Below are positions 23,610-59,537 of a stretch of 64,000 nucleotides of DNA, piece by piece (within the stretch, counting starts at the first letter, position 1; every line of letters starts with the position of its first letter). The notes under the pieces are model-generated. The model ran no database searches. It was given only the letters and a program-made list of their open reading frames with translations, and had not been told where the DNA came from. The stretch is from a virus, in the IMG/VR virus record IMGVR_UViG_3300024336_000009, positions 7,795 through 71,794 of that record. One strand, given 5' to 3'. A program made the translations under genes and the position numbers.

Positions 23610-24377
23610 TTAAATAAACTTATTGATTTTCTTTTTTTTATCTGGAATTACTTCGATGACTTTCATCTCATAATCGTTGTCTTTTGGATATGGCAGGTTT
23701 GGATATTTGAACTTAGATTTCAACAATCTATTTTCCCGTTTGTTTCCCAACAAATACAAATACCTATATTTAGGAGACGATTTCTTAATGTAGAACGGCT
23801 TGTCCAATACACTTTTCAATCCATCCTTACCAGCAAATCCGAATTTGATATGCACCGACCTTGGGTGCATCCATTCATACGGGTCTTTCGTTAATGAAGT
23901 CCATATCGCTCCACCAGGTTCTGGACATTGAAACATCCAATTTGTAGATTGATAAACGTACCCAATATGACCCGCTTCGGGATCGGCATAACTGACCAAT
24001 ATTTTCACCTTAGGCCGGTTTTCCTTTAACCATTTGAACGACTGACCTATGACATAACTTTCAATATTCTTGCCATAACCATCATGTATAAACAACCGTA
24101 ACAATTCACATATATTGGTAGATTTGATATTTTCATCTTCTACAATGGAATTTATTACATGCCTACCAACTGGATATCCATACATTATACAACCTATCAA
24201 TTTTTCATCATCATCGAAAAACTTGCTTGTATCATCACCCCTATAATATACCCCCAGAGCATCTTGCAATGTCCCAGGTGCCTTATGGGTATAATGATAT
24301 TTTTTGATTATGTCAATAGCTGTCTTTTTGTCAATTGGTCTCAGACTAACTTTCGACGTGTCCGTATATTTTTCCAT
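23610..24377 (-). CDS. Mom-like GNAT-fold DNA modification enzyme, paralog 2
   Basis: HYTH, ELLRLFI, SYADPEAGHIGYVYQSTNW, KYRY. Confidence 0.75.
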   Translation of the reverse strand: MEKYTDTSKVSLRPIDKKTAIDIIKKYHYTHKAPGTLQDALGVYYRGDDTSKFFDDDEKLIGCIMYGYPVGRHVINSIVEDENIKSTNICELLRLFIHDGYGKNIESYVIGQSFKWLKENRPKVKILVSYADPEAGHIGYVYQSTNWMFQCPEPGGAIWTSLTKDPYEWMHPRSVHIKFGFAGKDGLKSVLDKPFYIKKSSPKYRYLYLLGNKRENRLLKSKFKYPNLPYPKDNDYEMKVIEVIPDKKKKINKFI

Positions 24378-25180
24378 TAAATGAACTTCCCGAATTTACC
24401 ACTTTCTTCGACCTCAATTTTCCTGATTTCTTCTTCTCCATCAGCTTCAGTTGGGTACGGGTGAAATGGATGTTTTAACAATTTCATTAACCGGCGCTTC
24501 TCTCGTTTATCGGTTAGGAATTGAATATACCTATGCTTGATGCATTCTCGTTTCATCCAAAATGTCTGGCCGACTGCCTTTTTCATTTTCTCTACAGCTA
24601 CTGGAGTTGGATATGGAGTGACCCCATATCTTGAAAATACAGTCCTGCTGTGAATCCAATCATACGGATCATCTGAAAGTGATATTGGATAATTATCCAT
24701 CAATTTCATATCTTCAGCTTTCTGATAACCCCAGTTGGTGGCTTTGTATATTCCACCAACATGACCCTGTGCTGGATCGGCATAACTGATTAATAGTTTG
24801 ATGTCTGGCATGTTTTCCTTTAGCCATTTGAATGACTGACCAATAACAAAGCTTTCAATATTTTTACCATAACCATCATGTATAAATAATCGAGTGAGTT
24901 CCAATACACTCTTGTGCGGGTCCATTGTATCATCATTCACTACTGATGCGGCGGCCCTGCGACCGACTGGATTTCCATATATGATACACCCAATCAACTT
25001 TTCATCTTCGGCATCTAGAAACTTATGACCCCCACCAGTTTTATAAAATACACCCAATGGTGCCTGAGTTGATGCCGGCCATGCATGGCTGTAATGGTAT
25101 TTTACAATCATTCGCTTGGCGAGAGCAATCGTAATCGGTCTCAGTTCCACCTTCGATGTATCTACATATTTTTCTTCCAT
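24377..25180 (-). CDS. Mom-like GNAT-fold DNA modification enzyme, paralog 1
   Basis: HYSH, ELTRLFI, SYADPAQGHVGGIYKATNW, KHRY. Confidence 0.75.
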   Translation of the reverse strand: MEEKYVDTSKVELRPITIALAKRMIVKYHYSHAWPASTQAPLGVFYKTGGGHKFLDAEDEKLIGCIIYGNPVGRRAAASVVNDDTMDPHKSVLELTRLFIHDGYGKNIESFVIGQSFKWLKENMPDIKLLISYADPAQGHVGGIYKATNWGYQKAEDMKLMDNYPISLSDDPYDWIHSRTVFSRYGVTPYPTPVAVEKMKKAVGQTFWMKRECIKHRYIQFLTDKREKRRLMKLLKHPFHPYPTEADGEEEIRKIEVEESGKFGKFI

Positions 25181-25315
25181 AATGTCCTATACCACGGCCT
25201 AATTCTAGGCCATATCGTTTTACTACATCCAATGCCATAATCTTTTAAATATTTTATATGAATTCCACCACTATCAGAAAATATTAAGATATAGTATTCT
25301 GTTCTTAACTGTTTT

Positions 25316-27218: not shown

Positions 27219-29720
27219 TTAAAAAAATCGATCCATTGAGAATTTTTTATCTATCGGCTGTTGCCAATCAATGGCATCATATATCGATACGATCTTATTC
27301 AAGAATATACTATCATACATCTTGTCCCGATCGACATATTCATAGATGAAATCCATGATCTCTTTGGGGTCCTCATGACCCTTATATGCCACACTGTTCA
27401 GCCCGAGGTTATTCTTTTTCAAATATACCCACTTGACTTTATCGCCAGCGCCTATTAATTGATATTTCTTTTGTTGGTTGAAATGCTTAACCAAATCATT
27501 GTAAATAATTGATGATTTCACATGAATTGGGCAACCAGTTCTCCAAGTAGAAAATCCATCTTTATGTGTAACCAAATACTTTTTGATATTCTTAACCCCA
27601 GTTGGCTTTGCCACGTCTTCCACTTTCAAATATTTCATATTGTTTTTATATTCAATAATACGTTCATCAATTTTTTCCTTTGGAACGTCCGCTAGAATGT
27701 CACTCAATACTTCACCCAACAATTTTCTATATGATTGTGGAAAATCACTGCGTACAACTGCCAATCCTTTGTACACCGTTTTGTCAACTTTTACCCCATT
27801 GTCATTGATTACACGCAATCCGTAATTCTTTTTGGCGTTGACAAATATAGCCGACTTTGCAATCAATTCCTGCTTAATCTCAAATCGATGCTCACCCGAT
27901 ATGTTACAAAATCGTTTGGCAAAATAATCATATGACTTATTAATAAATTTTTGTGTATCATCGGCAACCGTTAAAATGTATTGAGATAACATCACATCAC
28001 TAAACTTTTTATCGCCATATCTACCTTTCACCATAGGAATTGAAGATATAAAAAGTGAATCGGTGTCGATATATATTACATAATCTTTATCCGTGCCCAA
28101 TTCTGTATTGTAGTAATGATTAGCGATTTGTTTTGAGAATCCAATTAAGTCTCGCCCAGTCGCCGTAACAGCAAGTGCCGACTCAAAATCATGGAATCTC
28201 CAACCCTGTAACCCAATTACACCAAATAGACTATTAAGCAGAATTTTCTGAATATGTTGTCGCCTATTGAAATATGAATATTTTTCATTGTCACCAGCGT
28301 CTGCATACTTTTTAGCAAGTCCCCTATATTCAACACGTTCTTCAAACCACCTCTTTAATATAGTTGAAAATAGCCCATCCCTATCAGTACTATACATTAT
28401 ACCATTCGCGGATATCGAAACTCCCTTTTCGTCAAAGAATGCTTGCAACTCATCTTGATCCAGAGATTGTGCGGCAGATTTACCATATTTTACTGTGTAC
28501 GTTTTTGGTTTCTTCTTTACAAAATCTGGAGCATCCCACCCATCAATTTTACCCATTTTGGTCTCTGGAGAAATGTTTAGTGACATAATTATACTAGGAT
28601 ACATTGATGTCAAATCCAAATCGTAGACCCATGCATGGCGACCTTTTTTCGGCTTTTGAACGTGAGCACCCTCAAATTGAATTCCTTCTTTCCAACCTTC
28701 CCTCTCAGGTTTGTTTGGTGAAATGACTCCCAATTTCTTCAAGTGAACAAGGATTGCTGACTCAAGATACCTACTATCCAAATATATGTCGTCATACGGC
28801 ACGTGACCTTTATGACATATACCACGAGCGATTTCTATGAAATTCAACTTATCATCCATCATCTTGATTAGCCTAACATCATGGATGTTGTATTCAACAA
28901 ATTTTAATATATCATTTTCATATAATTCATTCAATGTACCGTCATATTCAATTTTACGCTCGCCCAATTCAAAATCGGCTATAGCATCCAATCGATATGA
29001 TGCCTGTTGTGTAAATGTAAACTTTTTATACAATTGTAAGTAGTCCAATGTAGCTACACCAGCTATCCTATACACACCCCTAAAATCACTCCAATGCACG
29101 TGGCCGATTGGAGATAAACAATTGGCTACATCTTCATCCAATACATTACATGCTCTGTTGTATAGATATGTTACATCAAATCGATCAACATTCCAACCAG
29201 TTATTATTGATGGATTTATTTCAAGATATATCTGAAAAAATCTATTCAATAAATAGACTTCAGTATCAAATACTTCTGTATTTATTTCCTTAGTAACCGA
29301 TGGTTTTACAATACCCTTGCCATTTTCCAATACCAAAGCATGATATTTATCGGCAACAAAATCGTATATCGATATAGCCGTAACCTTATTTTCAGCCAAT
29401 GTCGCTGTTGGAAATCCATCAGTAACTTCGACCTCAATATCAATAATAATGGTTCTGTGACCCTTTGAAGGTTCATCATCATTGGTGTATAAATCAATTA
29501 ATGTTCTAGTTTCTGGGTGCACATCACTTTCAAATAATCCAGTAGTAGTTTTGTCCCACTTGTGAATTTTCTTAAGTCTATCACCATATAATGATGTGTA
29601 CGCACCATTTCTATCTTTTATATATCCATAACGTCTGTATGGTGCGGTGAAATATCCACGTTGATCATCCCAGATGTGTAGTTTTCGCTTTTCAGCTTCG
29701 AAAAATATCCCTTGATACAT
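27219..29720 (-). CDS. Family B DNA polymerase (gp43-like)
   Basis: DIEV exo I, GWNV..FD, YNIHD, DLTSMYPS, KILLNSLFG, YIDTDS. Confidence 0.95.
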   Translation of the reverse strand: MYQGIFFEAEKRKLHIWDDQRGYFTAPYRRYGYIKDRNGAYTSLYGDRLKKIHKWDKTTTGLFESDVHPETRTLIDLYTNDDEPSKGHRTIIIDIEVEVTDGFPTATLAENKVTAISIYDFVADKYHALVLENGKGIVKPSVTKEINTEVFDTEVYLLNRFFQIYLEINPSIITGWNVDRFDVTYLYNRACNVLDEDVANCLSPIGHVHWSDFRGVYRIAGVATLDYLQLYKKFTFTQQASYRLDAIADFELGERKIEYDGTLNELYENDILKFVEYNIHDVRLIKMMDDKLNFIEIARGICHKGHVPYDDIYLDSRYLESAILVHLKKLGVISPNKPEREGWKEGIQFEGAHVQKPKKGRHAWVYDLDLTSMYPSIIMSLNISPETKMGKIDGWDAPDFVKKKPKTYTVKYGKSAAQSLDQDELQAFFDEKGVSISANGIMYSTDRDGLFSTILKRWFEERVEYRGLAKKYADAGDNEKYSYFNRRQHIQKILLNSLFGVIGLQGWRFHDFESALAVTATGRDLIGFSKQIANHYYNTELGTDKDYVIYIDTDSLFISSIPMVKGRYGDKKFSDVMLSQYILTVADDTQKFINKSYDYFAKRFCNISGEHRFEIKQELIAKSAIFVNAKKNYGLRVINDNGVKVDKTVYKGLAVVRSDFPQSYRKLLGEVLSDILADVPKEKIDERIIEYKNNMKYLKVEDVAKPTGVKNIKKYLVTHKDGFSTWRTGCPIHVKSSIIYNDLVKHFNQQKKYQLIGAGDKVKWVYLKKNNLGLNSVAYKGHEDPKEIMDFIYEYVDRDKMYDSIFLNKIVSIYDAIDWQQPIDKKFSMDRFF

Positions 29721-31327: not shown

Positions 31328-31399
31328 AGCGGCTGGAAGGTCTTGAACCAACTCCTTCAGCTGGAAAGCTGACATGCAATCCTGTTACACCTCAGCCGC
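31328..31399 (-). tRNA. tRNA-Gly-like RNA with 6-nt anticodon loop and two U-U mismatches in the T stem
   Basis: GCGGCTG/CAGCCGC acceptor, U73, TCAGC-TTTCCA-GCTGA, T arm GTTGG-TTCAAGA-CCTTC, A8. Confidence 0.75.
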
Positions 31400-32093: not shown

Positions 32094-35000
32094 TTATTTT
32101 TCCTTTTGTTCTTCTTCAATTTGTGCCCACTCGGCATCGATCTCGCATACGTCAGTTCCACAGTATTTGTCTGGATTTGCCATTTCACCGTCAACATGTA
32201 AAAAACTCAAATATTTCAATCCAGATAGGATTTCATCATATTTCTCTTCAGTAATTTCTTCGTATGGCATTTGTCTATATGCACCTTTTTCAACCTTAGG
32301 CAAGAATGATATACCTTTCAATTGATATTGGTAATAGTTTAACGCGTGTTTTAATTGAGGACCTTCAGTTTCAGGATCAAACGTGATCGTACAACTAACA
32401 GCATTGTCCGCCCAATGCCGTTGCATAAACGCCGCTAGAGCCAACTGCTCCCACATAGTTAAGTCCTGCTTTGTCCTAATTCCGTCTCCCTCATCGATTG
32501 GAATTTCCAATACTACTGTGCTTTCTTCACTACCATATGCGGGTTCGATCTTATAACCAGCGGCTTCAAGTGGTTTTATCAGTTTACTATTCTTAGATAA
32601 TCTAACACGCCTGATGTAAAATCGGCTCTCTGGATAATGTAATCCGGGAGTTGATCCAGCTAATAATGACACCGTGCCACTCGGTTTGACACTTGTAATT
32701 TTTATACTCTTATTGATGCATAACCAATCTGAATACATTGTGTCCCACTTTTTAATTTCAACATACCCATCTTCTAACCATTCCCTAAGTACCCCCAAGC
32801 CCCTATTTGTGATAAACTGTGCAATACCAGATACAGATGTTCCAATTCTACGATTCCTGAGCATGACTCTATTTGTATCAGGCCAATGAGTTTTCCCAAG
32901 TGTGACCGTTTTTGCATAGAGATATGCATATTTCAATGTCCGTAGATAATCTTCTTTTGACGTATGATTATTGGGGAATGTTTCTACAAGACAACACAAT
33001 TCATATGATTCGAGCGATTGTTCTAAGCAATTATGAATAAATATTCCAGACGATTCCATATATTTATCGTCAACATTTGACGTTATTATTCCAAAATTAT
33101 GGGTATTTTCAACTGTCATATCATAAACATCTTCATGTCCATAAAATTCAATGGACAATACTTTATGATTCCAAATGCCCCTATTTTCCATTCCCCGCTT
33201 AACATTGGAACAGGAGTAACTACAGGTTTTTCTAGTAGAAGCTTGATGTTCGGTTAATGTTTTTTGTTTATTACAAACTGGGCATTTCCAATCAACCCAA
33301 ATTGTTTTTTCTTTCATTTTATCGGATATATGATTTCTAACTTCGGCGGTCATTCCATTTTTAATAGATTCTGTCATGAAATCTTTTTGATTTTCCCAAT
33401 TTTCCTTCGATTTCTCACCTATGGATTTTAATGTGGATTTTTTATGATATTTGCCATACATTGGATTATTTTCCGATAAATTATATCCTCTTTCTTCCCT
33501 TGTATTTTTCATCTTTTCTACACATTCCGGATTGTGCATTGGATTGTCAATTAATCTATGCAAACTACTATGCTCAGATTGTGTAATAATATCCAAATTA
33601 TCCCATTCATCGTTTGTTTTATCAAAATCCACATGATGAATAGCATACTTTTTAGCGTCAGGCATATATCCAATTTTATTTTCCGTGATAAGTCTGTATT
33701 GCCTTATTCCACTCGCCTTTTTACCCGTTCCACTTATATTTCTATAACCTCTATTAAAACTATTAAATGGAAATATCGAATCCCCTTCTTGCAAATCTTT
33801 AAGTTCTTTATACACGCCAGACCTTAACATAATTTTATGATTGGGAGTTGCCAATAAAGTAGAACCATCGTCTAAAATTAATTTCCATATTTCAGCATTT
33901 TCTTGTGTTTTCCAAGTTTTAATTGACTGACTTATTATTACTTTCCCATCATCATTAACTGAATAAACTGGATATATCGTATTTACCAAATCTTTAATAG
34001 GGATGGCGTTTCTACCATCCGCCACCGCAATTAAAGTATCTCCGACAACACAAGGATTGCCACCCTTTACCTTATGATCAATATTATCTTTGCCATTTTT
34101 CATTCTGGAATACCCCTGCATATTTTCTAACCATGCAAATCCAGGTTCTCCATTTTTAACCACACGTTCGCACGCTTCCGTATAATCCATGCCCAGTTCG
34201 GCAAAGATTGAATTATTAGAAGTCCATCCAAATTCTTCACGTTGTGGGTTTACCTCATAATTTTTAAGGTCAAGATACTCGGTATCATTGGGATCACCGA
34301 ATACGATTTCAGCTGTACGCCTTACGTTTCCAGCAACCACACATTTGCCAATATGGTTCATAATGTCCACAATAGTTGTGATTGTAATTGGGGCACCGAT
34401 ATTATCTTGCAATGTATCCCTCACACGTTCAATGGCATCTTCCAATGGTTTATACCCACTAGACGTTCCACCAAATCCTTTGATTGGTTCTCCCTCACCC
34501 CTGATTAATGAATAATCAAATTCCATCACAGATGTTCCTTGAAAGTAGCTTTCGATTACAAGTTTCATTGCCTCTACCCAACCTTCACGAGAATCTGGAA
34601 CTTGGTATATTTCAACTGGTCTAGTCATATTGGGACCTTTGACAATAAGTGCCCCAGCTCCCTTTGTATCAAATCCAACGCCAACGCCCAGCATCGACGC
34701 ATCCATAAGAAATGTAAATGGCTTGGCCAAATCATCCTTAAGATTTTCAGTAGATACAAACGCACAATTATTAAGTGCGGCATACAATCCCTTTTCTTCG
34801 GTGATGGGAGTACCCATTGCCCACAATCCACGTCCGGGTGGTAAAAATTTCATTTCAAATATACGCTCGTACATTTCTTGTGCCGATCGCTGTGCTTGCC
34901 ATGCATTCCATCCCAGACCGTCATTTTCTATGGATTTCTTCTGCATACTATATGTACCTTCAACTACACGCTGGACAGTTTCCCACCATTGTTCGTTTGA

Positions 35001-35126
35001 ACCATCCTCTTTAATGCGTGAATATGTCCTCATATACACCAATGCCCCGAGACCGTTAAACCCAAAGGGTGCCCGTTTTCTCTTAAACCCATCTATAAAT
35101 TTATCCGATAATTTAAAATTTATCAT
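32094..35126 (-). CDS. nrdJ: Class II (B12-dependent, monomeric RTPR-type) ribonucleotide reductase with intein
   Basis: FLPPGRGLW, NNCAF, VVAGNVRRTAE, NP|C.EQ, CCLVE, VKPSGTVS, C-terminal CGTDVC. Confidence 0.92.
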   Translation of the reverse strand: MINFKLSDKFIDGFKRKRAPFGFNGLGALVYMRTYSRIKEDGSNEQWWETVQRVVEGTYSMQKKSIENDGLGWNAWQAQRSAQEMYERIFEMKFLPPGRGLWAMGTPITEEKGLYAALNNCAFVSTENLKDDLAKPFTFLMDASMLGVGVGFDTKGAGALIVKGPNMTRPVEIYQVPDSREGWVEAMKLVIESYFQGTSVMEFDYSLIRGEGEPIKGFGGTSSGYKPLEDAIERVRDTLQDNIGAPITITTIVDIMNHIGKCVVAGNVRRTAEIVFGDPNDTEYLDLKNYEVNPQREEFGWTSNNSIFAELGMDYTEACERVVKNGEPGFAWLENMQGYSRMKNGKDNIDHKVKGGNPCVVGDTLIAVADGRNAIPIKDLVNTIYPVYSVNDDGKVIISQSIKTWKTQENAEIWKLILDDGSTLLATPNHKIMLRSGVYKELKDLQEGDSIFPFNSFNRGYRNISGTGKKASGIRQYRLITENKIGYMPDAKKYAIHHVDFDKTNDEWDNLDIITQSEHSSLHRLIDNPMHNPECVEKMKNTREERGYNLSENNPMYGKYHKKSTLKSIGEKSKENWENQKDFMTESIKNGMTAEVRNHISDKMKEKTIWVDWKCPVCNKQKTLTEHQASTRKTCSYSCSNVKRGMENRGIWNHKVLSIEFYGHEDVYDMTVENTHNFGIITSNVDDKYMESSGIFIHNCLEQSLESYELCCLVETFPNNHTSKEDYLRTLKYAYLYAKTVTLGKTHWPDTNRVMLRNRRIGTSVSGIAQFITNRGLGVLREWLEDGYVEIKKWDTMYSDWLCINKSIKITSVKPSGTVSLLAGSTPGLHYPESRFYIRRVRLSKNSKLIKPLEAAGYKIEPAYGSEESTVVLEIPIDEGDGIRTKQDLTMWEQLALAAFMQRHWADNAVSCTITFDPETEGPQLKHALNYYQYQLKGISFLPKVEKGAYRQMPYEEITEEKYDEILSGLKYLSFLHVDGEMANPDKYCGTDVCEIDAEWAQIEEEQKEK
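33030..34052 (-). mobile_element. Intein (341 aa) with HNH endonuclease and NUMOD-type segments
   Basis: Starts CVVGDTLI, block B ATPNHKI, HHVDFDKTNDEWDNL, block F VYDMTVENTHNF, ends IHN before Cys. Confidence 0.9.
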
Positions 35127-37967: not shown

Positions 37968-39092
37968 CTATTCTTCTTCTAAAACCTCGTCATCCGGTTC
38001 TTCTGGAACCGTTTCTACTACGATTTCTTCATCGTCATTTGCGACATTTCTATACTTCAATATAACATTTTCGCATATTTGTTGATATAGATATTCTTTC
38101 AATTTGGGATTCTTTTCAAGAACTTCCTCAAATTTCTTAGCTTGGAATTTTATCGATTTATCTTCATACTCAATTGTGTACCAAGCTCCAGCTTGTTTTA
38201 TAATCTTATATGCGGCCAATATCCTGATCCAACTTCCCAAGTCGTCAATGCCAGAGGCAAAATCGAGCTGAAATTCGGCTTTTCTCAATGGTGGTCCCAT
38301 TCTATTTTTGATTACTTGGGCTCCAATTTTCATCCCAATTATCCGTTCCTTTGTACCAGTACCAACTTTTATTCTGCCCATATTCTTCAATCGTATTCTA
38401 ACTGAAGCGTGGAATGGCAGAGCCTTACCACCAGAAGTAGTCCATGGATCACCAAATCCCACTCCCAATTTTTGCCTTAATTGATTTGTAAATACTAACG
38501 CCACACGTTGTTTGCCAATCGTCTGGGTAATTTTTCTCATGGCTTTTGAAATCACAATAGCTTTGGTCGTTGCCCAACCATCCTTATCATAATCGGCTTC
38601 CATCTCAACTTTTGTACTAGCAGCGGCAATACTGTCAACTAATATAGTAACCAATCGACCTTTTTCCGTTTCTCTAGTTTTGAGTATAATACTTTCGATG
38701 TGTTCGAAAATTTCTTCAACGGTTTCAACATGATCATAAATCATATTTCTAACATCAACGCCAATCGCTGTTAAAAACTGTGGACTAACAGATGTTTCCG
38801 TATCAATGTAAATGGCCACCCCACCCTTTTTTTGAGTATTGGCTAGGATATGGGCACCGATAAGACTTTTACCGGTTCCTTCAAGTCCATTAAATTCTGT
38901 GATTCTACCTACTGGTATTCCTCCATGTGGAATATTAGATATTGCTAAATCTAATTCAGACGATCCCGTTGAAATTCAATCGGATACGTCCGTAGGTGTT
39001 GATTCTCCATCCAGAAAATATGCAACTGTATCATCAGCGGCACTATTCAATGAATCGGCAATTACTGAGGCTAATTCGTCTCGATCTCTCAT
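37968..39092 (-). CDS. recA: RecA/UvsX recombinase, TGA=Trp at 38976 (codon 39)
   Basis: GGAG RBS, ATG 39092; DVSD-W-ISTGSSELDLAI, GRITEFNGLEGTGKS, IDTE, VDSIAA, FTNQLR, GGKALPFHASVR. Confidence 0.9.
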
Positions 39093-45890: not shown

Positions 45891-46086
45891 TATGTAACCT
45901 CTTATAATCCTCGTCCTCAAATATGATTTTACCATCACGTTCCACACGGACAATATCAAATTTTATGTTTTTCTTAGACGTGAAGTCTTCATTATGTGTG
46001 CCCCAAATGCTTCCAGCATAAGTTAGATACACCCTGTTATTTCTGAATGTCAATGAATCGTATGGTTGTAAATCTTTTAATTTCAT
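45877..46086 (-). CDS. Small hypothetical protein
   Basis: ATGA overlap with the upstream gene. Confidence 0.5.
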   Translation of the reverse strand: MKLKDLQPYDSLTFRNNRVYLTYAGSIWGTHNEDFTSKKNIKFDIVRVERDGKIIFEDEDYKRLHNVTN

Positions 46087-46442
46087 TTTTTTACCCTTAT
46101 TTCTATCTCATATAAATAATCCCAATGGCCACTTGGTTGATATTTTATGACCTTTGGATGATATTTTAATTTGTGCAATGTATCTTCAATCCCGAAGATT
46201 GTATCCATCGCCTGTTTTACACTATCTTTGCGAGTACCCATATTTCCACGAAATGATACCGAAATATTCACAGCCTTTCGTGATCTTCGGATTTCCACCG
46301 ATCCCAATCCAGAATGATATGTTCCATTATCAGCCTGTCTGGCCACCTCTGCAACATCTGTTAAATTATCTGAATTTATTACATCCGATATTGTCCCATC
46401 CATATCTTCTGGTAGTTCAAATAGTGTGTGTTCGTCAGTCAT
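46083..46442 (-). CDS. Early hypothetical protein ending at TGA
   Basis: GAGGA RBS, first gene after promoter copy 4. Confidence 0.55.
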   Translation of the reverse strand: MTDEHTLFELPEDMDGTISDVINSDNLTDVAEVARQADNGTYHSGLGSVEIRRSRKAVNISVSFRGNMGTRKDSVKQAMDTIFGIEDTLHKLKYHPKVIKYQPSGHWDYLYEIEIRVKK

Positions 46443-46462: not shown

Positions 46463-46495
46463 TGAAGATACAAGATTATCCGCACAAAGTCAAGC
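46463..46495 (-). promoter_or_regulatory. Sigma70-type early promoter, copy 4
   Basis: TTGACT-17 nt-TATCTT. Confidence 0.75.
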
Positions 46496-46513: not shown

Positions 46514-46536
46514 AAAAAAAACCCCCAATCGGGGGC
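46514..46536 (-). terminator. Rho-independent terminator
   Basis: CCCCC-GATT-GGGGG then T8. Confidence 0.8.
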
Positions 46537-46540
46537 AGTT

Positions 46541-46957
46541 TTAGTTTTCTTTAGATTCTCATTCGGTTACATTAATGATTGTATATATCCGGGTGGGTAT
46601 TTTAACAAACCCAGAGGAGTTCGTAAGCAATAAATTATTTCTGAATTCGTCTCAATCTATTGGAAATGTCTTATCCAGTACCCCATTGTTCTTACGCCTA
46701 ATCACTTCATTAAGAGCGTTAATGGTATATAGTGTATTGGATTGTTTTTTTCTATGCAAGGAAATGGTATCCTTATTTGTAAGGTAATTTTCAGTATCCT
46801 GTTCTATATTGTATGTGCATATCAACTGGTGGAAATTGTCTTCATTTTGAAACACGTATATTTTATTGAATAGTATTTCATGGTAATCAATGATTAAATC
46901 TATCGTATCGTGCAACTGATTCCGTTTTGTGAATGAGCAAAGTAATTGCGTGTGCAT
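46541..46957 (-). CDS. Hypothetical phage protein, TGA=Trp at 46652 and 46559
   Basis: TISLHRKKQSNTLYTINALN; reads through to TAA immediately before the terminator. Confidence 0.65.
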
Positions 46958-50824: not shown

Positions 50825-53272
50825 TTATAATGCATCCGGAATAATATAACCCAATCGTCTCATTAATTCAGCTTTCGTTTCCGAGTTCTCAGTCCTTTCA
50901 ATTTGTTCTTCATTTTCGGCCTTTTCATCTTTTAGGAAATTTCGGTCGGATTTTTCCGTGTCAAGTTGATCCCTTACGGATATTCTCATTTTTCCCACAA
51001 TGGAAGTTTTTCAGCTGGACGCGTCCAGCTCTTGTGTAGAACTCATAACCTGAAATAATACCCGATCTTTATATTGGGAAGGCAGATAATTGCTTGTAAA
51101 ACAATTTCCTGGGAAAATCCCAGATATACCATCCAATGTTAATGAGATTTCCAACGCGACCATGGGATCAAAATCAATAGAAACCGATTCTTTTTCATCG
51201 TATGTAATTAAATATTTCATGACATCCAATCATGGAGTGTCCTTGGTATTTAATAAATTCCCCCAATATCCATAAACACTGCCAGTCAATGTGTCTTTAT
51301 CTTCCGATTTGAAATTAAAATCAAAAAATTGTTTTTCGGTAAATTTCAACGTATGTATGCTTTTGACAGTTTCGGCGGTTTCATCATCGTGATTTTCTGA
51401 ATCTGACCCTTTTTTATCAATGGCCTCAATACCAACATCGGGACCACTTTCCGTATCAAATTTGGAATTTACCCCAGCGGATTTATTACCAAATTTATCA
51501 AAATTTCAACCGGGTTTAATATCATGAATCAGCCCGTCTTTATCACCAGGAGCACTACCCAATTTACTAGCAGCGACAATTTTAATGCCTCCCATTTGGG
51601 AAGGTGACGTAATTTCCTCAGCATTATCCCACATCATCGCCATAGCCATTTCATTTGTAATTTTAGCATTTAATGATTGTGCAGTAACAATACTATCCTT
51701 ACCCATAACTGGGAAATGGAATAAACCACCAGTAACAGTTTCTCAATATTTATCCAATTCACTCGGAATTTTAAGCAACGATTTTACAGATTGTTTGGTA
51801 AGATTCATGTCTACAATCTTTAATGTACCGGGTCTATCTGGTGCAGATACCAATTGCAAATCTCATATTCCAACATTTTCATTCATTCTCTCAAACAATT
51901 TTTTAAGTGCACTGGTGATATCAGACGCGTCATTGAATACATTTGTTATCAAATAATTCCAATTGAACATTATATTTCGCATGTATCCTATCTTTAAATT
52001 TTTATATTCAGCTGGATCATCAGTTACTTGGAACGTTGGGAAATCCTTATTAAAATCCCGCAATATCGGATGAACATCAGTAAGATCATCCACATTTCTA
52101 TGCGATTGTCCAGGTAAAATAAAAAATTTATAATCTGGAGAAATCAATTTATCATGACTTGATATTTTAGTTGATTGTCATGCCAGCTGATCTGGGGGCA
52201 ATCCTTCAGTTTCAGCCAATCCAGCCGTTTCGATTGTGTGTTGATCCCCGTTGTCTTTTAATATAGGTTCTATACTTCGAATTGAACTTATTACTACACC
52301 GTGAGCGTCCACTTTGCTTAAATATTTATTTAATATATTATCTTCTATTCATCCCCATGATATATATAATTCATGTGATCTCGGATCGGCACCGGTAGAT
52401 GGTTCAAATCTATTCTTAATTCATTGTAATGGCATTCCTTCATTGCCAATTCCACCATCATCCACATGTTTAAATTTTTCAAGTTTGGTTGAAATGTCCC
52501 TTAGAAATGTTTGGAAATTTTGTTTAAGTTCAACTTTTCGGTTATCATTTTTATCCGTTTTTGCGACATTTATATTGTCCACTGGAGTAATTCGTTGTTT
52601 TAATATGTCTAATCCCATTGAAGAAATATTGGTAGTGCAATCGATTCCCCCATCGTCTCTAGTCGATCATTCAAAATTGGTTACGAGACCAATCATACCA
52701 TCATAAGTTCCATTGGAATTAAATGAATTTTCCATCATTTTTTTATGTGCCAATATCATATCTGGGCTTTTTTCATTTATATCATGTAATACCATATCAT
52801 TGTCCGAATATGAATATCCCCATTCTAAAATAACAGTTCTACCCGGTTTTAAAAAATATGGAGTATATTTGGTAACATCGTCAAATGACCAACAAGTCCA
52901 ATTAATAGTAGCAGTACGCAATGTCGCCAATGTATTTTTATATTCAACACTAATACTTTTTACTCCAGGCATTGGTCTGTACTGATTATCACCAGTATTT
53001 CTAGGAGAATTATACATATCCTCAAAACCATAATATGCTTCTTGATTTTCTTTTAACAATCCCCCACCTATTATTACAGGTTTATCATCTTTGATAAGCC
53101 CAACCATCCGGATTCAAGTCGATTTTGCAAAAATGTTATTTGCGTCGGCTTTCTTTTTCCCAGTACCATCGGTCTGCGGACCTTCAAATAGTATGCCTTC
53201 TCTATTTAACAACTTTTGTCGTCTGTGCAATTCCGCCCTAATTTTACTATGTATGGGTTGTAGATTAATCAT
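50825..53272 (-). CDS. Baseplate/tail-hub-associated protein (815 aa) with 10 TGA=Trp
   Basis: Single frame from ATG 53272 to TAA 50825; ST-W-IRMV, RPMPGVKSI, ATINWTCWS, LEWG, ISWG-W-IEDNIL, LTLDGISGI.PG. Confidence 0.75.
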
Positions 53273-53274: not shown

Positions 53275-53577
53275 TTAAAACCCCCTATTTAATTCTTCCA
53301 AATCACTAAATATTTGTGCAGTGTCGGTGGGTATTCTGATATCCAGTCCAGATTTTAATGTAAAATTTGCATCATCTATATCATTGGCAAGTGCTATTAT
53401 CCACCACAACGATGTGTCTCCATAATATTTAAATGCAAGCAAATCTAGCCTGTCACCTTTTTTGGACATTGTGAAAATATCAGAATCCAATATTGGAATC
53501 TTGGGATACAATGTAGTCTTAAATACACGGTTTTTTAAAGAATTTCTTTTTATATTGGTGTGTGTATATCTACCCAT
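53275..53577 (-). CDS. LysM-like baseplate wedge protein (gp53-like)
   Basis: GDRLDLLAFKYYGDTSLWWIIALAN...IRIP. Confidence 0.8.
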   Translation of the reverse strand: MGRYTHTNIKRNSLKNRVFKTTLYPKIPILDSDIFTMSKKGDRLDLLAFKYYGDTSLWWIIALANDIDDANFTLKSGLDIRIPTDTAQIFSDLEELNRGF

Positions 53578-53580: not shown

Positions 53581-56500
53581 TTAATCCTCCCACGATGGAT
53601 CAGACCATGAAAATGGTCCATCGCCCTTTCCAGATTGCCCCATTTCCGCGAACAATTCCCTTAAATCCATCCCATCGGAATGCCTATCGGGATAATTGCC
53701 ATTTGGATTATCCAAATATGCAGTGGAACTTTTATTATTGTTATTTTTATAATCCAGCCAATCCAAATCATAATGCTTACCCTTTTGAGCCGGCTTGTGT
53801 TTTCCAATGTATTTATACCCAACACTAACACTTAAATGCTTGGGCAATTTGAAATGATCATCCAATTCCCAAGTGGTGTTATCTTCTACCGTTATTGATA
53901 AGCTGGTTAAAAATCCTGGAGCCCCCGTTCACATATTACCAATGGTCAATTCGGCAAATGGAGATACCATTCGTTCCATATCACTATTGGAAAAATCTTT
54001 TCAGCTGGGGTAACACATTCCAATTAAATAATTCATTTTTTCTCATAAAATTGGCAGTTCCTGTTTCGTCTTTGGATATACATTGAAATTGAAACTTATT
54101 TCCCTGTCCACTCCAGCGTATGTATATACTTTATCGGGGCGGCCTATGTATTTTTCTTCTGATCAATCTGGTGTAACACTATCCGATATCCCAGACAGAA
54201 TGGCTCTGAAAATGATTCATTTATTATTGACCACATCTTTAAATTTAAATGGAATGAAATCTCGTACTTCTAAATTGTTAATTTCCTTTGGCTCTTTTCC
54301 ATTAACACTCCCGTATGGTAGGGCATTAACTTTGTCAACCTTACTTGTCATAAGCTTACTCGATCCCAAATCGGCCTTAATATGACTAAAACCAGCCTTT
54401 TTCAAACCGGCATTAAATGTCTCGGGCCTAAAGAAAAATCCATCTCCGGTTGTTTCAGACCCATCTGTAAATTGTCTAAGAATTCCAGCATTACTTTGAT
54501 CTCCAACATCAATTACAGCAAATTTTTCATCATCACCAAATTGATCTTTTCGAATTCTATCTATCTCTCTACTTGCTTCCGCATTATTGCCCAGTAGACT
54601 TCCCAGTTTTGATAATAACGGATTTGTTCCCGGATTATCTATAATTGCTTCTTCTTTTCTGAAATGATAATTCAATGAATTTTCACCCCAATCAACAAGT
54701 TTTGTATCTAAAGGATTGGCCGCTTCGAATTCCAAAACGGTAGATGATACAAGTGGTGATCCAGTATTCCAATGTCGGTTGATATGAACTGTAGGCGTTA
54801 TAGAACCCAATGACAATGGATTCCATGTTCTAGTTTCTTCCTTAGTATTAAGGGTCTGCAATGCCACTTGTTTTATTCCAAATAGAACACCTTTAGTCGA
54901 AAGTATAAATTTGCCGATTCTGAATACATCGGCAATAGTTCTTGATATGGATGTAATTAATCCACCACGTACTATGCCCTCATCAAAAGCGCCTGTATTA
55001 CCCAATCCATATTTATCTCCTATATCATGAAGGTAAAATGGTTGGTTAAATCCTATATCATTATGTCCATCTCCAATTCTATAATTGAGTTCATCACCGT
55101 CTTTAAATCCACGGCCGTAATAATTATCCAAATTTGTAGCATCATCATTTCCCCACGAATCTTTATGCAAATCTTTTAAGCGTGATTGATCACCACGTGT
55201 GTTATTTGTTATTGAGCTGCCCTCTCCAATTTTGGCCACGGAAGGAGAATAAGCCTCCCCCCTATAAAAACCAGTATTCAGAAATTTTGGTGAATTTTCA
55301 TTCTGTTTGCCCAATTGAAAATTTCTAGTATATGGTTCCATTGTCAATGTGGTACTGGTATCAAAATATTGAATTCTAGATCGTCGTTTGTATGTTTTTG
55401 TATATGACTTGCCTATACTGAATGTTTTAAACCACGAATCCGTAGGACTTGGAGTATCTTCTTTTGTAGGTAAAGCGATATTGGAATTCAATGACGACAA
55501 TGCTTCATATGCATGCCCAAATATATCCGTAAATGTCATGTTTATTGCATCGCCGGTTTTAAATCTACTGTCTTTAATTGGTCCAAATAAGCTGGCAAAT
55601 TGTAATGTTGATGTAGGTTTAGTAGACGCTTTATTTGGTAGGTATGTTCCAGCCCAATCAATGTTTTCATCCGAATCGGTCAGTATTCTAGTCTGTAATC
55701 CATAATTACCAACAAAACTATATTGTTTTGGAATATGAAATGTAGGTTGTTTTCCATCCACAAATGATGTATTGATAGCATCTTTAGTTGTGGATCATAC
55801 TGGAGCAGTCGCTATTCTAGATAATTGTCTAGCTCTAATAGTAGTTGGATTGTGTGCGGCCAAATTGACATCACCCTCAATCCAATGCAATGAATCTTCA
55901 AAATCTACCTCTGGATAATGATCAAAAAATGTTCGGTCTGTTTTCTCATATGATATTGGAACACCAGTATCAGCTATGTCTCCTGTCATATATTGAACAG
56001 AATCTGCAAATGGAATCGCCGTGTGATGATTAAATGCCGCTCTAGTTTTAGCGTATGAAATTGGCAATGTTATCGCCGGAGTGTCATAAACAATATCAGG
56101 ATTAGTTACCGATGTTTCAATTGGAGGAGCATATCTACTAATATAACTGGCAATTGGAGTAGTCATAAAATCACTCCCATGTGCGCCCAATGTACTGGGT
56201 GTCGTATTTATTGCCGTTTGATATGTTTCACCAGCGGTTGGTCCAGTTAATGTAATCATACTTACATTATGAGTTAATGAATCTGAAAATCCCTGCAGAT
56301 TACTTATGTTATTAGCAATTGGAGTAGTCATAAAATCGCTGTCATATGCATTAGGTGCCGCAAAGATGATAGGTTCCAATGTATCTAACCCCACAGTATG
56401 TCTGGTTGTACTTAGTGCCATTGTGTCATTTGGTGCCAGTTTTGAGTCCCCGTATGCCATATTAAAAGTAAATCCAGCGGGCAATGTCCCAGGTCCCCAT

Positions 56501-56835
56501 TCTCCAGTAACCCCACTAAAATAATTAACAGGACCAGTTTGAATACCTTCACCAGTTGGGTGTACCTGACTGCCCACCGCTTCCAGCATATTAGCTAATG
56601 CACTTTCATTGGGTCTATCAAATTCTTTATTTCCAGTAACAGTATATCCATGACCATCATTAAATGATTGTGCATTACTTGAATTACCAACTCCAGTATC
56701 AAGTTGAGAATGCTCAATTGAATGTGCAGGCATGGATGGAGTTTCATTTGATAATCCACCATGGCGTCCACCATGTTGACTTAAATTGTCTCCAGCACCA
56801 GCTGATAAATCACTTGTTAAATCTATAATACTCAT
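53581..56835 (-). CDS. Large tail/baseplate protein (1084 aa) with a C-terminal tube-like domain; 6 TGA=Trp
   Basis: In frame across TGAs at 55795, 54217, 54163, 54043, 54001, 53929; DFIPFKF, FRAILSGISD..PD-W-...YIGRPDKVYTY.G..REISFNF. Confidence 0.75.
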
Positions 56836-59537
56836 TAGTCCGATACTCCCAGTTCTCCAACTTTACCAGTCAGTTTGTTCATCAAATCCTTATTTTGTTT
56901 TAATAATTCCCTATTTACACCCACTATTTGAGTTAATAATTTATTCGTTTCGGCCATATCAGTCGCTTGATTAACAGTATTTCCATCTCCAGAAACAGTC
57001 ACATCCGACGATCCACCTATTCCAGTCAATTTGTCCAATACAGGCAAAAATGGAGACAATAATAATGCCCCGCCAGCCAGTTTTGCCATACCTCAACCAA
57101 GTTTACCAAATGCTTCTCCCAAGCTTATTATGGAAGATGTCATTGGGGCCAATTTTGTAAGTATAGGTTCAAAACTAAGAAATCCAGCAGATAACATAGT
57201 AAATCCAGTTCCTATCGCCTGAATAGCATATCCCAATACCAATAATCCGCCAGCCATTATTACCATTGCTGCCGCACCAGCCAAAATTGCCACAGTTCCA
57301 ACACCACTAGACATTATTGCCCCCAATGCTAATACCGCTACTACCAATCCACCCAATGCTAAAGCGGCCTTACCCAAACTGGGCCAATCCACTTTATTAA
57401 ATACCACCAATGCCTGTGCGGTTATGTATAATGCACCAGCCACAATTACCATTGCTGCAGCACCAGCCAACATCTTTTTGGGATTAATTCGTTCCACGAA
57501 TCCAAGTCCAGCCTTACCCTTTGGCTTTGGAGCTTTTGCAAATCTTCCTTTAGCATCTCTTAATCTGCCAGCCTTATCTGTTGATAATCCACCCTTTGAA
57601 GAGGCCATTCCAGATATCAAACCTTTCATTTTGCCCAACTTTGTGAGCATTCCATTGCCAATAATTCGTTTTCTGAATAATAAAGCAACCGCAGCGAGAG
57701 CTGTCAGGCTCGCCAATAATCCTGGAGAATATTCATACAGTTTTTTAATACCAGTGACCAATAAACCAACGGAGGCCACCATCAATGCAAATTTTGCCGC
57801 TATCGCAATAACTGGTAGTAAAAGTACGCCGACTGTTATAGCTATTATTTTTCAATTTTTAACCATTCATTCTAATGCTGGAGCTATATAGTCAGTTATC
57901 CACCCACTCATCGTTTCCAATATTGCAGGTATTTTTTCACCAATGGACTCTAACATTGGTTGAAATCTTTTCTTTAAAGCCCCAGTAATGTCGTTCCACG
58001 CGGTCCCGATATTCTTTACCATTGCAGCGTGTTTTTCTGCAGCGGCAGTTTGATCGGTTGACATATGATTTAAATGCTCTTGATTCAATACCATTTTTGT
58101 TAATTCTTCAACTCCCACACCAAATGCTGCAGCTAATTTTTTCCTTTGGAAATACTGCATATTTTCCAGTTCCGCTTGACTACCAACTTGTTTTAATACC
58201 TCTCGTTGCATTCCTGCCAAGTCACCTGTAAATGCCAATTGTCTAGCTTTATCCGTATTGATATTTCTGCCTAATAGAATTGATGCTTCCATTGAAGATT
58301 CGATTGAACTTTCAAAATCCAATAGACTTTCAGCCATTTTTGCAGTCGTTGCAATACTCAATCCCAATTTACGAGCTTCGATTGCCGCTGTAAATAAATT
58401 GTCCCCACCGTCTTTTGCGTATGTGGCGAACATTTCGGTGTCCCCAGCCAAATCTTCCATAACTGCCGCTGGAGCAACTTTGTTTGCTCGAGCCAATTCA
58501 CCTACCATTGCCAAACTATGCATTGATGCTGAAAAGGATGAACCTGATACAGCCATCATCATTTCAGCCAATTTAGCTGTAGATTCGGCGGATACCCCAT
58601 ATTGGAATCCCAATAATTTCATTTTCATTAAATTTTGACTTGTCGCTATATCAAGTGAACCAAACTCAGCCAATAGTGCTTTCGCTTCCTCTCGCGCAAA
58701 CAATATGGCCGGTCCAAATTGAATTAATTGACCATATGAAAATCCAGTTTCATTACCGAAATCAACCATTTTCTTACCCAATGCTACTAACCCCACCCCT
58801 ATAGCCAAAATGCCAACTTTAAGGGCCGTTATTGGATTGGTGACAATGGATATCAATTTGGCCTTTATATCACCCCATTTTTCCTTTTGAGCTTCAATTT
58901 TTGAATTTAATTCTGTATTTTTTTTGTTTATCAAATCATGCATTTTTGACTGTGCTTGCATACTTTTAACATTTTTGATTTGAGCGTTTATCAGTTTAAT
59001 ATTATTTTCAACACCTTGTTCCGTAATATCATATTCACCGTCGGCCAGAGATTTTCTAGTTTTCATCAGATCGGATAAATGTGAAGATAAATCAACCGTT
59101 TCAAATTCTTCAGAATTTAAATTCTTCCGGTTGTGTACCATAGCCAAACCCAAATCCATAGTTTCACTAGATAAATCTCGTATTTTTTGCAGTGATTCCG
59201 ATTCCTTTAGGGTAATTCCTTGCAGAGTTGCCATATTGTCAGTTCAATTGACTGTATTTTGTAGAATCTTTTGTTGTGACTTGCTAAGATTGGCAAATTT
59301 TTTCCCGAGATTTTCTATTTGAGTTTCGTTTGTAGCGGTGTTTTTTATTTTTCTCTTTAATTCGGCATTTTGCTTTTTTATATTTTGATATGTTACTTCT
59401 TCGGCCGCACTACGTTTTTTACCCTTTTCTGCCAAAGTATCGGCCTTTTCAATTTGCTCATCAAGCTTCGTGATTTGAGCTCGCATTAAATCAAGTGTTT
59501 CTTTGGCCTCAATATTTCTAGAAGTTCGTTTTGCCAT
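56835..59537 (-). CDS. Tape measure protein (900 aa); 4 TGA=Trp (59244, 57867, 57852, 57093)
   Basis: Helical Ala/Gly-rich with hydrophobic repeats; LLDFESSIE..MEAS.L.GR.IN..KARQLA; four fragments in one frame. Confidence 0.8.

What the first reader, a model, noticed from the sequence alone, without database searches (positions are those of the whole stretch)
23610..59537. Recoded codons are partitioned by gene class, consistent with a code switch during infection
Seen: PolB (12 Trp) and RNR (21 Trp) use only TGG. I found no internal TGA in genes between 23610-37863 or 39143-46442. By contrast the baseplate gene 50825-53272 has 10 TGA vs 7 TGG, 53581-56835 has 6 TGA and the tape measure has 4. 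Early promoters are sigma70-like. Inference: the host reads TGA as stop, early and replication genes stay code-11 compatible, and virion genes become translatable only after phage-driven suppression. Caveat: the tail tube gene has 5 TGG and no TGA, so the gate is not universal.
Basis: partly seen in the sequence, partly recalled or inferred. Interest (0 to 1): 0.8.

Follow-up and report, generated by a model that had tools for sequence, protein, structure and literature searches.

The report
Phage reads TGA as tryptophan
This is part of a large tailed phage that reads the stop codon TGA as tryptophan, mostly in low-copy tail and baseplate genes and almost never in its DNA-replication genes, a pattern already described in gut phages and seen here in a different phage lineage.

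Summary
The counts are right. Under code 4 three minus-strand ORFs open up: 815 aa with 10 TGA, 1084 aa with 6, and the 900-aa tape measure with 4. PolB, RNR and the tail tube have none. TGA means Trp: it aligns to Trp or aromatic residues in homologues and swaps with TGG in orthologues.

The class bias is real. TGA/TGG is 27/64 in tail genes against 4/125 in replication genes (p=3e-8). GC3 does not explain it. It survives stratifying by conservation and recurs in a 140-kb relative (p=0.01).

It is a gradient, not a clean gate. UvsX, GDP-mannose dehydratase, a methyltransferase and homing endonucleases also carry TGA. High-copy virion proteins carry almost none: tail tube 0, and in the relative the capsid protein 0 and the sheath 1.

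A standard-code host is inferred, not shown. TGA is 12% of Trp codons here, against 77-87% in Mycoplasma phages. Early ORFs of the relative appear to end on TGA.

No UCA tRNA, release factor or TrpRS lies on either incomplete contig.

This is the late-gene recoding model of Borges et al., here in a new lineage with a T4-like replication module.

The parts
50825..53272 (-). 815-aa protein of the baseplate region, next to the gp25-like gene. 10 in-frame TGA, 7 TGG. No Pfam, PHROG or PDB sequence match.
   Evidence: counts. TGA sites align to Trp or aromatic residues in homologues (site 754 Trp 137/137, site 308 113/139, site 470 104/135). TGA and TGG interchange among orthologues; no family match.
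53581..56835 (-). 1084-aa protein directly downstream of the tape measure. 6 TGA, 12 TGG. Unannotated.
   Evidence: no match; orthologue in G001 at 48% identity.
56835..59537 (-). Tail length tape measure protein, 900 aa. 4 TGA, 4 TGG.
   Evidence: phrog_4372, phrog_167..
60312..61085 (-). Baseplate hub-like protein, 257 aa, TGA at codon 137.
   Evidence: the phrog_150 match covers residues 6-252 and spans the TGA; the G001 orthologue has TGA at the same codon 137.
61624..62052 (-). 142-aa protein with 3 TGA and 3 TGG. Its N-terminal motif YESIxKxWE also occurs in 62246-63370. The Trp of that motif is TGA here and TGG at the N-terminus of the neighbour.
63396..63887 (-). Tail tube protein. 0 TGA, 5 TGG. 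97% identical to the G001 orthologue.
53275..53577 (-). gp25-like baseplate wedge protein. 0 TGA, 2 TGG.
46541..46957 (-). 138-aa protein, last gene before the terminator. 2 TGA, 0 TGG. In the G001 orthologue (93% identical) the aligned stretch holds 1 TGA and 1 TGG.
46521..46536 (-). Strong intrinsic terminator (GCCCCC-GATT-GGGGG followed by T8) immediately after the TAA of 46541-46957. It separates the tail module from the next transcription unit.
46465..46493 (-). Sigma70-like early promoter motif TTGACT-N17-TATCTT. Further copies at 44904-44932, 41566-41594 and 41055-41083.
   Evidence: 4 copies here and 15 on the gene strand of G001.
46077..46442 (-). Early 121-aa gene whose only TGA (codon 120 of 121) forms an ATGA overlap with the start of a conserved 69-codon gene (45877-46086). 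It probably acts as a stop.
   Evidence: the downstream ORF is 91% identical over 68 residues in G001.
37968..39092 (-). UvsX/RecA-like recombinase with TGA at codon 39, upstream of Walker A. The G001 orthologue has TGA at the same codon.
   Evidence: phrog_97, residues 11-237. (G001 gene 72446-73564, TGA at codon 39).
27219..29720 (-). T4 gp43-type family B DNA polymerase. 0 TGA, 12 TGG.
32094..35126 (-). Ribonucleotide reductase with an HNH-containing insert (intein-like). 0 TGA, 22 TGG.
8307..9275 (-). GDP-mannose 4,6-dehydratase with TGA at codon 156, which falls on the conserved Trp of the KLYGHW motif.
   Evidence: in the two best-matching solved GMD chains (1rpn, 2z1m), shown residue by residue, the TGA position aligns to Trp.
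31328..31399 (-). tRNA-like gene with a 6-nt anticodon loop UUUCCA, next to tRNA-Gly(UCC) at 31244-31316. It is not a canonical UCA suppressor.
   Evidence: Rfam tRNA, 36 bits. (ARAGORN finds it only at a lowered threshold, with a 2-base anticodon); conserved in G001 with compensatory stem changes.
22438..23151 (-). Homing endonuclease with TGA at codon 55. Other accessory genes with sense TGA: 18920-19774 (3), 10506-11189 (1), 4868-6319 (3), 12290-13294 (1), 443-1162 (1).

Best explanation
The window is about a third of the genome of a tailed phage with a contractile tail and a T4-like replication module. The genome is roughly 195 kb by CheckV's estimate. The phage uses TGA in two ways.

In a subset of genes TGA encodes tryptophan. 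These are mainly low-copy virion and assembly proteins: the tape measure, two large proteins of the baseplate region and the hub. In the relative they also include the large terminase and the portal. Homing endonucleases and accessory sugar-modification genes belong to the subset too.

Replication genes and the most abundant virion proteins avoid TGA almost entirely. Small early genes, seen best in the relative, appear still to end on TGA.

The most likely mechanism is the one proposed for recoded gut phages. The host terminates at TGA. Early and replication genes are written so that they read the same under either code. Later in infection TGA comes to be decoded as Trp, and only then can full-length tape measure, baseplate, terminase and portal proteins be made.

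Shown: TGA means Trp, the class bias is real, TGA is depleted as a stop, and the pattern is conserved in a relative. Inferred: the host's code, the timing, and the existence of a phage-borne suppressor, which is not on the sequence available.
For: TGA means Trp:
- In GMD, codon 156 aligns to the conserved Trp in the two best-matching solved GMD chains shown residue by residue.
- In the 815-aa protein, 8 of the 10 TGA sites have Trp, Phe or Tyr as both of the two commonest residues among the best 150 homologues (site 754 Trp 137/137, site 308 113/139, site 470 104/135). At a ninth site (284) Trp is commonest. Site 510 is variable (T, G, N, S).
- 7 of the 10 TGA columns carry TGG in at least one of 4 orthologues, and 2 columns are TGA in all five.
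- Profile matches span the TGA in the hub, UvsX, the methyltransferase and the endonucleases.
- Counting TGA as Trp gives similar Trp densities in the three classes: 16.2, 15.9 and 19.9 per 1000 codons.

Class bias:
- 27/64 against 4/125, p=3.3e-8. The A-ending share of Lys/Glu/Gln codons is 0.74-0.80 in all classes.
- It persists in both conservation strata: 24/49 against 2/27 (p=0.006) in poorly conserved genes, and 3/15 against 2/98 (p=0.025) in well conserved ones.
- It recurs in orthologues of G001: 9/54 against 3/103, p=0.0099.

The host probably reads TGA as stop:
- TGA is 49 of 395 Trp codons here (12.4%). It is 77% and 87% in Mycoplasma phages MAV1 and phiMFV1, where it tracks the A-ending share of 87-91%.
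- In the early-promoter regions of G001, TGA is enriched in the last 12 codons of ORFs: 18 TGA/22 TGG there against 43/228 in the ORF bodies, p=7e-5. That is 17 of 119 ORFs, against 1 of 103 elsewhere.
- 5 of those 17 are NTGA overlaps that open ORFs of at least 40 codons.
- Only 10 of 43 body TGAs in those regions have coding-like flanks on both sides, against 35 of 41 elsewhere.
- In this window, the TGA of 46077-46442 forms an ATGA overlap with a conserved downstream gene.

The model itself is in print for TGA-recoded gut phages (Borges et al. preprint, passages read).
Against: - No tRNA with anticodon UCA, no release factor (PF00472) and no TrpRS (PF00579) was found on the 72-kb contig or on the 140-kb relative. 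Both contigs are incomplete (37% and 71%).
- The host is unknown. A PolB scan of 185,579 species genomes found no relative, and GMD hits are 57-63% identical across many phyla.
- UvsX carries a conserved TGA ahead of its ATPase motif in both phages. UvsX is not a late gene in T4 (recalled).
- Within the tail module, 9 genes with 30 Trp codons have no TGA. In G001 the capsid protein has 0/7 and the sheath 1/9. This also fits selection on expression level.
- TGA share falls with conservation (rho -0.38, p=0.004, 57 genes).
- In this contig alone, TGA is not enriched in the last 15 codons (7/31 against 42/315, p=0.30).
- The base following sense TGA shows no preference for a leaky context (p=0.089).
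- The T4 late promoter TATAAATA is not enriched (14 matches against 11.6 expected), so 'late' rests on gene function and synteny, not on mapped promoters.
Confidence: 0.6

Rival explanations
1. The host itself reads UGA as Trp (code 4). There is no switch. The uneven distribution of TGA reflects mutation pressure (TGG to TGA) resisted by selection in conserved and highly expressed genes.
For: - No suppressor tRNA, RF or TrpRS on 72 kb plus 140 kb.
- All 84 curated genes end on TAA or TAG under code 4.
- UvsX has a conserved TGA.
- TGA share is higher in poorly conserved genes.
Against: - The TGA share is 12%, against 77-87% in phages of true code-4 hosts with a similar AT bias.
- TGA is enriched at the ends of early ORFs in G001, some as ATGA overlaps.
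- The class effect survives stratifying by conservation.
- One preprint abstract (search listing) says UGA-to-Trp was previously known in only three bacterial phyla and reports a fourth. From recall, mostly small-genome symbionts and Mollicutes; no phage with a T4-like replication module is known from such hosts.
Confidence: 0.17
2. TGA is decoded as Trp throughout infection, but inefficiently, by a phage or host factor. It behaves as a costly rare codon. Selection purges it from genes that need high or fast expression (replication enzymes, capsid, sheath, tube) and tolerates it in low-copy and accessory genes. The pattern is a by-product, not a timing device.
For: - High-copy virion proteins lack TGA while low-copy ones carry it.
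- TGA share correlates negatively with conservation.
- Accessory sugar genes and homing endonucleases carry TGA.
- There is strong heterogeneity within the tail module: 0 of 30 Trp codons are TGA in 9 genes, against 27 of 61 in the other 7.
Against: - The tail-versus-replication contrast remains in the well-conserved stratum.
- Early ORFs that appear to end on TGA need efficient termination at TGA at that stage.
- This rival does not exclude a temporal switch. The two explanations can both hold.
Confidence: 0.2
3. The TGA-interrupted ORFs are pseudogenes or assembly or sequencing errors.
For: None beyond the bare presence of in-frame stops under code 11.
Against: - 20 TGAs in three adjacent essential tail genes, with no TAA or TAG and no frameshift.
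- Trp or aromatic residues at those sites in homologues.
- The same sites are TGA or TGG in four orthologues from other contigs.
- A code-11 gene call in the protein database covers exactly the stretch between two TGAs (P0004, residues 56-201).
Confidence: 0.01

Closest known systems
TGA-recoded (code 4) gut phages such as the Agate, Jade and Sapphire clades (Borges et al., preprint 10.1101/2021.08.26.457843; passages read)
   Same: - In-frame TGA read as Trp.
- Recoding concentrated in structural genes, with DNA replication genes left in standard-compatible code.
- TGA depleted as a stop.
- Homing endonucleases preferentially recoded.
- Suppressor tRNA detectable in only about a third of code-4 genomes.
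   Different: - A different lineage: T4 gp43-type PolB, UvsX, gp32-like SSB and clamp loader. The nearest isolate is Microcystis phage Mel-JY01, at 41% PolB identity.
- Its relatives come from IMG/VR and metagenome contigs whose origin I did not look up. The host is unknown.
- No lysis genes were identified, so lysis-gene recoding could not be tested.
- High-copy virion proteins are spared.
- No canonical recoding machinery lies on the available sequence.
TAG-recoded crAss-like and Lak phages (code 15). Seen as search listings only: Yutin et al. 2021 PMC7886860 and Peters et al. 2022 PMC9523058.
   Same: Blockwise use of a reassigned stop in late genes of a phage whose host is thought to use the standard code.
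   Different: A different codon and amino acid (TAG to Gln), different phage orders, and gut Bacteroidota or Prevotella hosts.
Phages of true code-4 hosts (Mycoplasma phages MAV1 and phiMFV1)
   Same: TGA encodes Trp, and all genes end on TAA or TAG.
   Different: There TGA is the dominant Trp codon in all genes (77% and 87%) and tracks AT bias. Here it is 12% overall and 3% in replication genes.

Membership tests
Stop-codon-recoded phage, TGA to Trp (code 4), with late-biased recoding | In-frame TGA in conserved genes at positions that are Trp in homologues | tested here: met
   Profile matches span the TGA.
Stop-codon-recoded phage, TGA to Trp (code 4), with late-biased recoding | The recoded codon is depleted as a stop | tested here: met
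   All 84 curated genes reach TAA (73) or TAG (11). At most 7 of 84 could end on TGA. Standard-code PolB relatives end on TGA in 37 of 144 ORFs; those loci are not deduplicated. Binomial P=5e-5. Early ORFs of G001 do seem to keep TGA stops.
Stop-codon-recoded phage, TGA to Trp (code 4), with late-biased recoding | Recoded codons enriched in structural or lysis genes relative to replication genes | tested here: met
   Structural genes. Lysis genes were not identified, so that half is untested.
Stop-codon-recoded phage, TGA to Trp (code 4), with late-biased recoding | Phage-encoded suppressor tRNA (anticodon UCA) or other recoding machinery (RF1, TrpRS) | tested here: inconclusive
   None found in G000 (37% complete) or G001 (71% complete). 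Borges et al. found a suppressor in only 35% of code-4 genomes, so this feature is common but not defining.
Stop-codon-recoded phage, TGA to Trp (code 4), with late-biased recoding | The host uses the standard code | not testable with these tools
   No host link was found. Only indirect evidence is available.
Phage with a T4-like replication and virion module | gp43-type PolB, UvsX, gp32-like SSB, clamp loader, sheath, tube and gp25-like wedge | tested here: met
   The sheath, capsid, portal and terminase are seen only in the relative G001.
Phage with a T4-like replication and virion module | T4-type late promoter TATAAATA upstream of late genes | tested here: not met
   14 matches against 11.6 expected, and none placed upstream of tail genes on the gene strand. 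A different motif, GATAYTTATA, sits upstream of four genes.

The most novel reading that the evidence does not exclude
The clade has no canonical opal suppressor. Instead it decodes UGA with the conserved, non-canonical tRNA at 31328-31399. Its 6-nt anticodon loop, UUUCCA, contains the Trp anticodon CCA. The loop is kept unchanged, with compensatory stem changes, in a relative whose PolB is about 83% identical (best aligned segment). That would make this RNA the switch that turns an otherwise standard-code infection into a TGA=Trp one.
Probability: 0.07. Interest if true: 0.85.

Novelty: new member of a known kind. Interest (0 to 1): 0.45.

Why it matters
It extends late-biased TGA-to-Trp recoding, described so far mainly in gut phages, to a lineage with a T4-like replication module known only from metagenomic contigs.

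It also shows how standard gene calling fails here. The public protein collection holds code-11 fragments of the baseplate-region protein that stop at the TGAs.

Two details sharpen the published model:
- The most abundant virion proteins are spared. A pure timing gate therefore cannot be told apart from selection on translation efficiency without experiments.
- Small early genes of the relative seem to keep TGA as a stop, which would make the genome truly dual-coded.

The missing suppressor and the odd conserved tRNA give a concrete experimental lead.

Tried and rejected
- The megablast of window 40000-64000 against isolate phages found nothing.
- A MAFFT run of 61 long proteins timed out. 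A first parse of the phmmer alignment used the wrong columns, and one search replaced it.
- Generic sigma70 and terminator scans were not enriched over shuffles: 91 against 86.4, and 78 against 82.5. Only the specific repeated motif is informative.
- TATAAATA is not enriched.
- GATAYTTATA with up to 1 mismatch is weakly enriched: 32 against 23.9, reached by 8 of 100 shuffles.
- The comparison of ORF lengths under code 4 and code 11 across loci is too noisy to call recoding. It only suggests that the relatives at 55-57% PolB identity are not recoded. ORF coverage by region is likewise uninformative.
- The +4 nucleotide context of sense TGA is not significant.
- Host search: PolB found no relative in genome contigs. 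GMD gave 80 loci at 57-63% identity across many phyla, which is no host signal.
- Low-threshold ARAGORN runs give many false tRNAs. A tRNA-Cys(GCA) candidate in G001 has a poor cloverleaf and lies inside a small hydrophobic ORF, so I rejected it.
- A loose pattern for the odd tRNA hit 35 IMG/VR loci. Only G001 is a homologue; the other 34 look like chance matches with no tRNA features.
- The 815-aa and 1084-aa proteins have no Pfam, PHROG or PDB sequence match.
- I used no structure prediction, complex prediction or sequencing-run look-up.
- The supplementary tables of Borges et al. were not seen. They may list recoded phages related to this one.

Full report
**What the sequence is.** The window is bases 7795-71794 of a single linear viral contig of 71,794 bp. 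CheckV rates the contig 37% complete. GC is 33-40% and every long ORF is on the minus strand. PHROG scans give three blocks in the direction of transcription.
- A tail module (63887 to about 46540): tail tube, baseplate hub, tape measure, gp25-like wedge and several large unannotated proteins.
- A replication and nucleotide block (46442 to about 19850): RNA ligase, polynucleotide kinase, SSB, UvsX, exonuclease, DnaB-like helicase, RNR with an HNH insert, dUTPase, PolB, clamp loader, two Mom-like genes and a ClpP-like protease.
- A block of glycosyltransferases and sugar-nucleotide enzymes, including GDP-mannose 4,6-dehydratase.

PolB is of the T4 gp43 type. The nearest isolate is Microcystis phage Mel-JY01, at 41% identity.

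Under code 4 three ORFs appear that code 11 breaks into pieces: 50825-53272 (815 aa, 10 TGA), 53581-56835 (1084 aa, 6 TGA) and 56835-59537 (900 aa, 4 TGA). That gene is UvsX, with a TGA at codon 39 ahead of its Walker A motif.

**TGA is tryptophan.**
- In GMD the TGA falls on the Trp of the KLYGHW motif in the two best-matching solved GMD chains, shown residue by residue.
- For the 815-aa protein an exhaustive HMMER search found 3,356 relatives. In the best 150, 8 of the 10 TGA sites have Trp, Phe or Tyr as both of the two commonest residues: site 754 is Trp in 137 of 137, site 308 in 113 of 139, site 470 in 104 of 135. At a ninth site (284) Trp is commonest, and site 510 is variable. Gly is rare at the nine Trp/aromatic sites, and of those nine it outnumbers Trp only at site 365 (Gly 6, Trp 4), so code 25 is excluded.
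- Among five orthologues from different contigs, 7 of this gene's 10 TGA columns carry TGG in at least one other sequence, and two columns are TGA in all five.
- Short proteins in the public collection cover exactly the stretches between TGAs. P0004, for example, covers residues 56-201 at 99% identity. Standard gene calling has therefore already fragmented this gene.

**The class bias is real, but it is a gradient.** Over 84 curated genes of the whole contig, TGA/TGG is 27/64 in the tail module, 4/125 in replication and 18/157 in the sugar block. Tail against replication gives p=3.3e-8. The A-ending share of Lys/Glu/Gln codons is 0.74-0.80 in all three classes. Two of the four replication-class TGAs are near-terminal. 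The other two are in UvsX and a homing endonuclease.

Inside the tail module, nine genes with 30 Trp codons have no TGA, including the tail tube. The other seven have 27 TGA and 34 TGG.

TGA-bearing genes are less conserved. Their median identity fraction to the relative is 0.27, against 0.69 for genes without TGA, and rho is -0.38 (p=0.004) over 57 genes. The tail-versus-replication contrast nevertheless survives in both conservation strata (p=0.006 and 0.025).

**A relative repeats the pattern and supplies the missing modules.** G001 is a 140-kb IMG/VR contig, 71% complete, whose PolB is 82.5% identical over its best aligned segment. It is syntenic with this contig. In orthologous stretches, TGA/TGG is 9/54 in tail genes, 3/103 in replication genes and 8/80 in sugar genes. 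Tail against replication gives p=0.0099. Its head and packaging genes show:
- large terminase 3/12
- portal, with an HNH insert, 5/7
- major capsid protein 0/7
- sheath 1/9
- tail tube 0/5

The essential low-copy assembly proteins therefore need TGA decoding, and the high-copy ones do not. The TGA at UvsX codon 39 and at hub codon 137 is shared by both phages. The tape measure and the two large proteins are the least conserved tail genes (45-53% identity, against 97% for the tube).

**What the host probably reads.** TGA makes up 12.4% of Trp codons here. In two phages of Mycoplasma, a true code-4 host, it makes up 77% and 87% and follows AT bias. TGA is also purged as a stop. All 84 genes reach TAA or TAG, and at most 7 could end on TGA. 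Standard-code PolB relatives end on TGA in 37 of 144 ORFs (binomial P=5e-5).

The replication genes thus read the same under either code. In this contig alone, terminal TGAs are not enriched (p=0.30).

G001 is more informative. It has long regions of small ORFs behind 15 copies of the same sigma70-like promoter found four times here. In those regions TGA is enriched in the last 12 codons: 18/22 against 43/228, p=7e-5. That is 17 of 119 ORFs, against 1 of 103 elsewhere. Five of the 17 are NTGA overlaps that open ORFs of at least 40 codons. Only 10 of 43 internal TGAs there have coding-like flanks, against 35 of 41 elsewhere.

In the window itself, the TGA of 46077-46442 forms an ATGA overlap with a 69-codon gene that is 91% identical in G001. 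Early genes therefore appear to use TGA as a stop, which argues for a standard-code host. The gene calls behind this are crude, and the host was not identified.

**No recoding machinery was found.** ARAGORN and Rfam find no tRNA(UCA) in either contig. Neither contig has an RF-1 domain or a class Ib synthetase. Both contigs are incomplete. Borges et al. found suppressors in only 35% of code-4 phage genomes.

**Transcription signals.** A strong terminator follows the last tail-module gene (46536-46521). The conserved promoter TTGAC(T/A)-17-TATCTT then starts the next unit. Generic promoter scans and the T4 late motif are not enriched. A candidate late motif, GATAYTTATA, lies just upstream of the tail tube, 59793-60068, 48908-50197 and the homing endonuclease. 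All four exact gene-strand matches in the window are intergenic.

**Comparison with what is known.** There, TGA or TAG sense codons accumulate in structural and lysis genes, replication genes stay standard, the recoded stop is depleted beforehand, and homing endonucleases are preferentially recoded (Borges et al. preprint, passages read). TAG-recoded crAss-like and Lak phages and the Mgcod tool appeared in search listings only. One marine-sediment study reports mostly TAA and TAG recoding and only 3 TGA events (passages). A five-term search ('TGA', 'recoded', 'T4-like', 'metagenome', 'genetic code') returned only the Borges preprint, and a wider search listed no report of a TGA-recoded phage with a T4-like replication module among its 15 listed papers (of 583 that held the terms). 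Absence from these searches is weak evidence, and I could not see supplements.

**Verdict.** This is a new member of a known kind. Confidence in TGA=Trp is about 0.97, in the class bias about 0.9, and in the standard-code host with a temporal switch about 0.6.

Noticed in passing
window 31328-31399 (-), next to tRNA-Gly(UCC) at 31244-31316 (-): A tRNA-like gene (Rfam tRNA, 36 bits) with a 6-nt anticodon loop UUUCCA, two U:U mismatches in the T stem and glycine-like acceptor features (G1-C72, C2-G71, G3-C70, U73; these identity rules are recalled). In G001 the loop is identical. Two stem pairs change on both sides (C5:G68 to U:A, A29:U41 to G:C) and one pair changes to a wobble. With only two independent sequences this is suggestive, not proof, of function. 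It could be a decoy or a nuclease-resistant tRNA (van den Berg et al. 2023, PMC10264068, listing only), or it could relate to recoding.
   Followed up: partly
G001 81985-82058 (L062): The relative carries a third tandem tRNA, tRNA-Gly with anticodon ACC. From recall this anticodon is unusual for bacteria. The clade seems to diversify a small tRNA-Gly family.
   Followed up: no
window 62246-63370, 61624-62052 and 61136-61624 (-): Three genes between the tail tube and the hub have no counterpart in G001. Two of them share a roughly 55-residue N-terminal motif (LYESIxKQWENxVELDEIDFK...), and a partial copy lies at the C-terminal end of 62246-63370. This looks like an inserted or duplicated element.
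   Followed up: partly
window 44946-45959 and 41993-42952 (-): An RNA ligase (with an HNH-like N-terminal part) and a polynucleotide kinase lie here. This is the T4-type tRNA repair pair, which suggests pressure from host anticodon nucleases.
   Followed up: no
window 30062-31219 (-): A 385-aa protein matches Pfam DruA (Druantia protein A, E=6.5e-23, above the family cut-off) inside the replication block. It is 90% identical in G001.
   Followed up: no
window 23610-25180 (-): Two tandem Mom-like DNA modification genes. G001 has three ORFs of this size in a row.
   Followed up: no
window 32094-35126 (-); G001 8088-11264: RNR here carries an HNH-containing insert of about 350 residues (intein-like) with no TGA. 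In G001 the portal gene carries an HNH insert that holds 4 of its 5 TGAs, and PolB there is interrupted by about 1 kb.
   Followed up: no
window 1-19800 and contig bases 1-7794: A block of about 27 kb holds glycosyltransferases, GMD, an epimerase-glycosyltransferase fusion and a methyltransferase. This is an unusually large sugar-modification cluster for a phage. Its function, whether DNA, virion or host-surface glycosylation, is unknown.
   Followed up: no
window 48908-50197 (-): A 429-aa protein that I placed in the tail module has weak, sub-threshold similarity to family A DNA polymerase (Pfam E=2e-4, PHROG E=2.8e-4). Its class assignment, and that of 46984-48891, is uncertain. Both have no TGA.
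   Followed up: no
window 63929-63938, 60091-60100, 50213-50222 and 23268-23277 (-): The motif GATAYTTATA sits 15-40 nt upstream of four genes. G001 has seven copies, all on the gene strand. It is a candidate middle or late promoter.
   Followed up: partly
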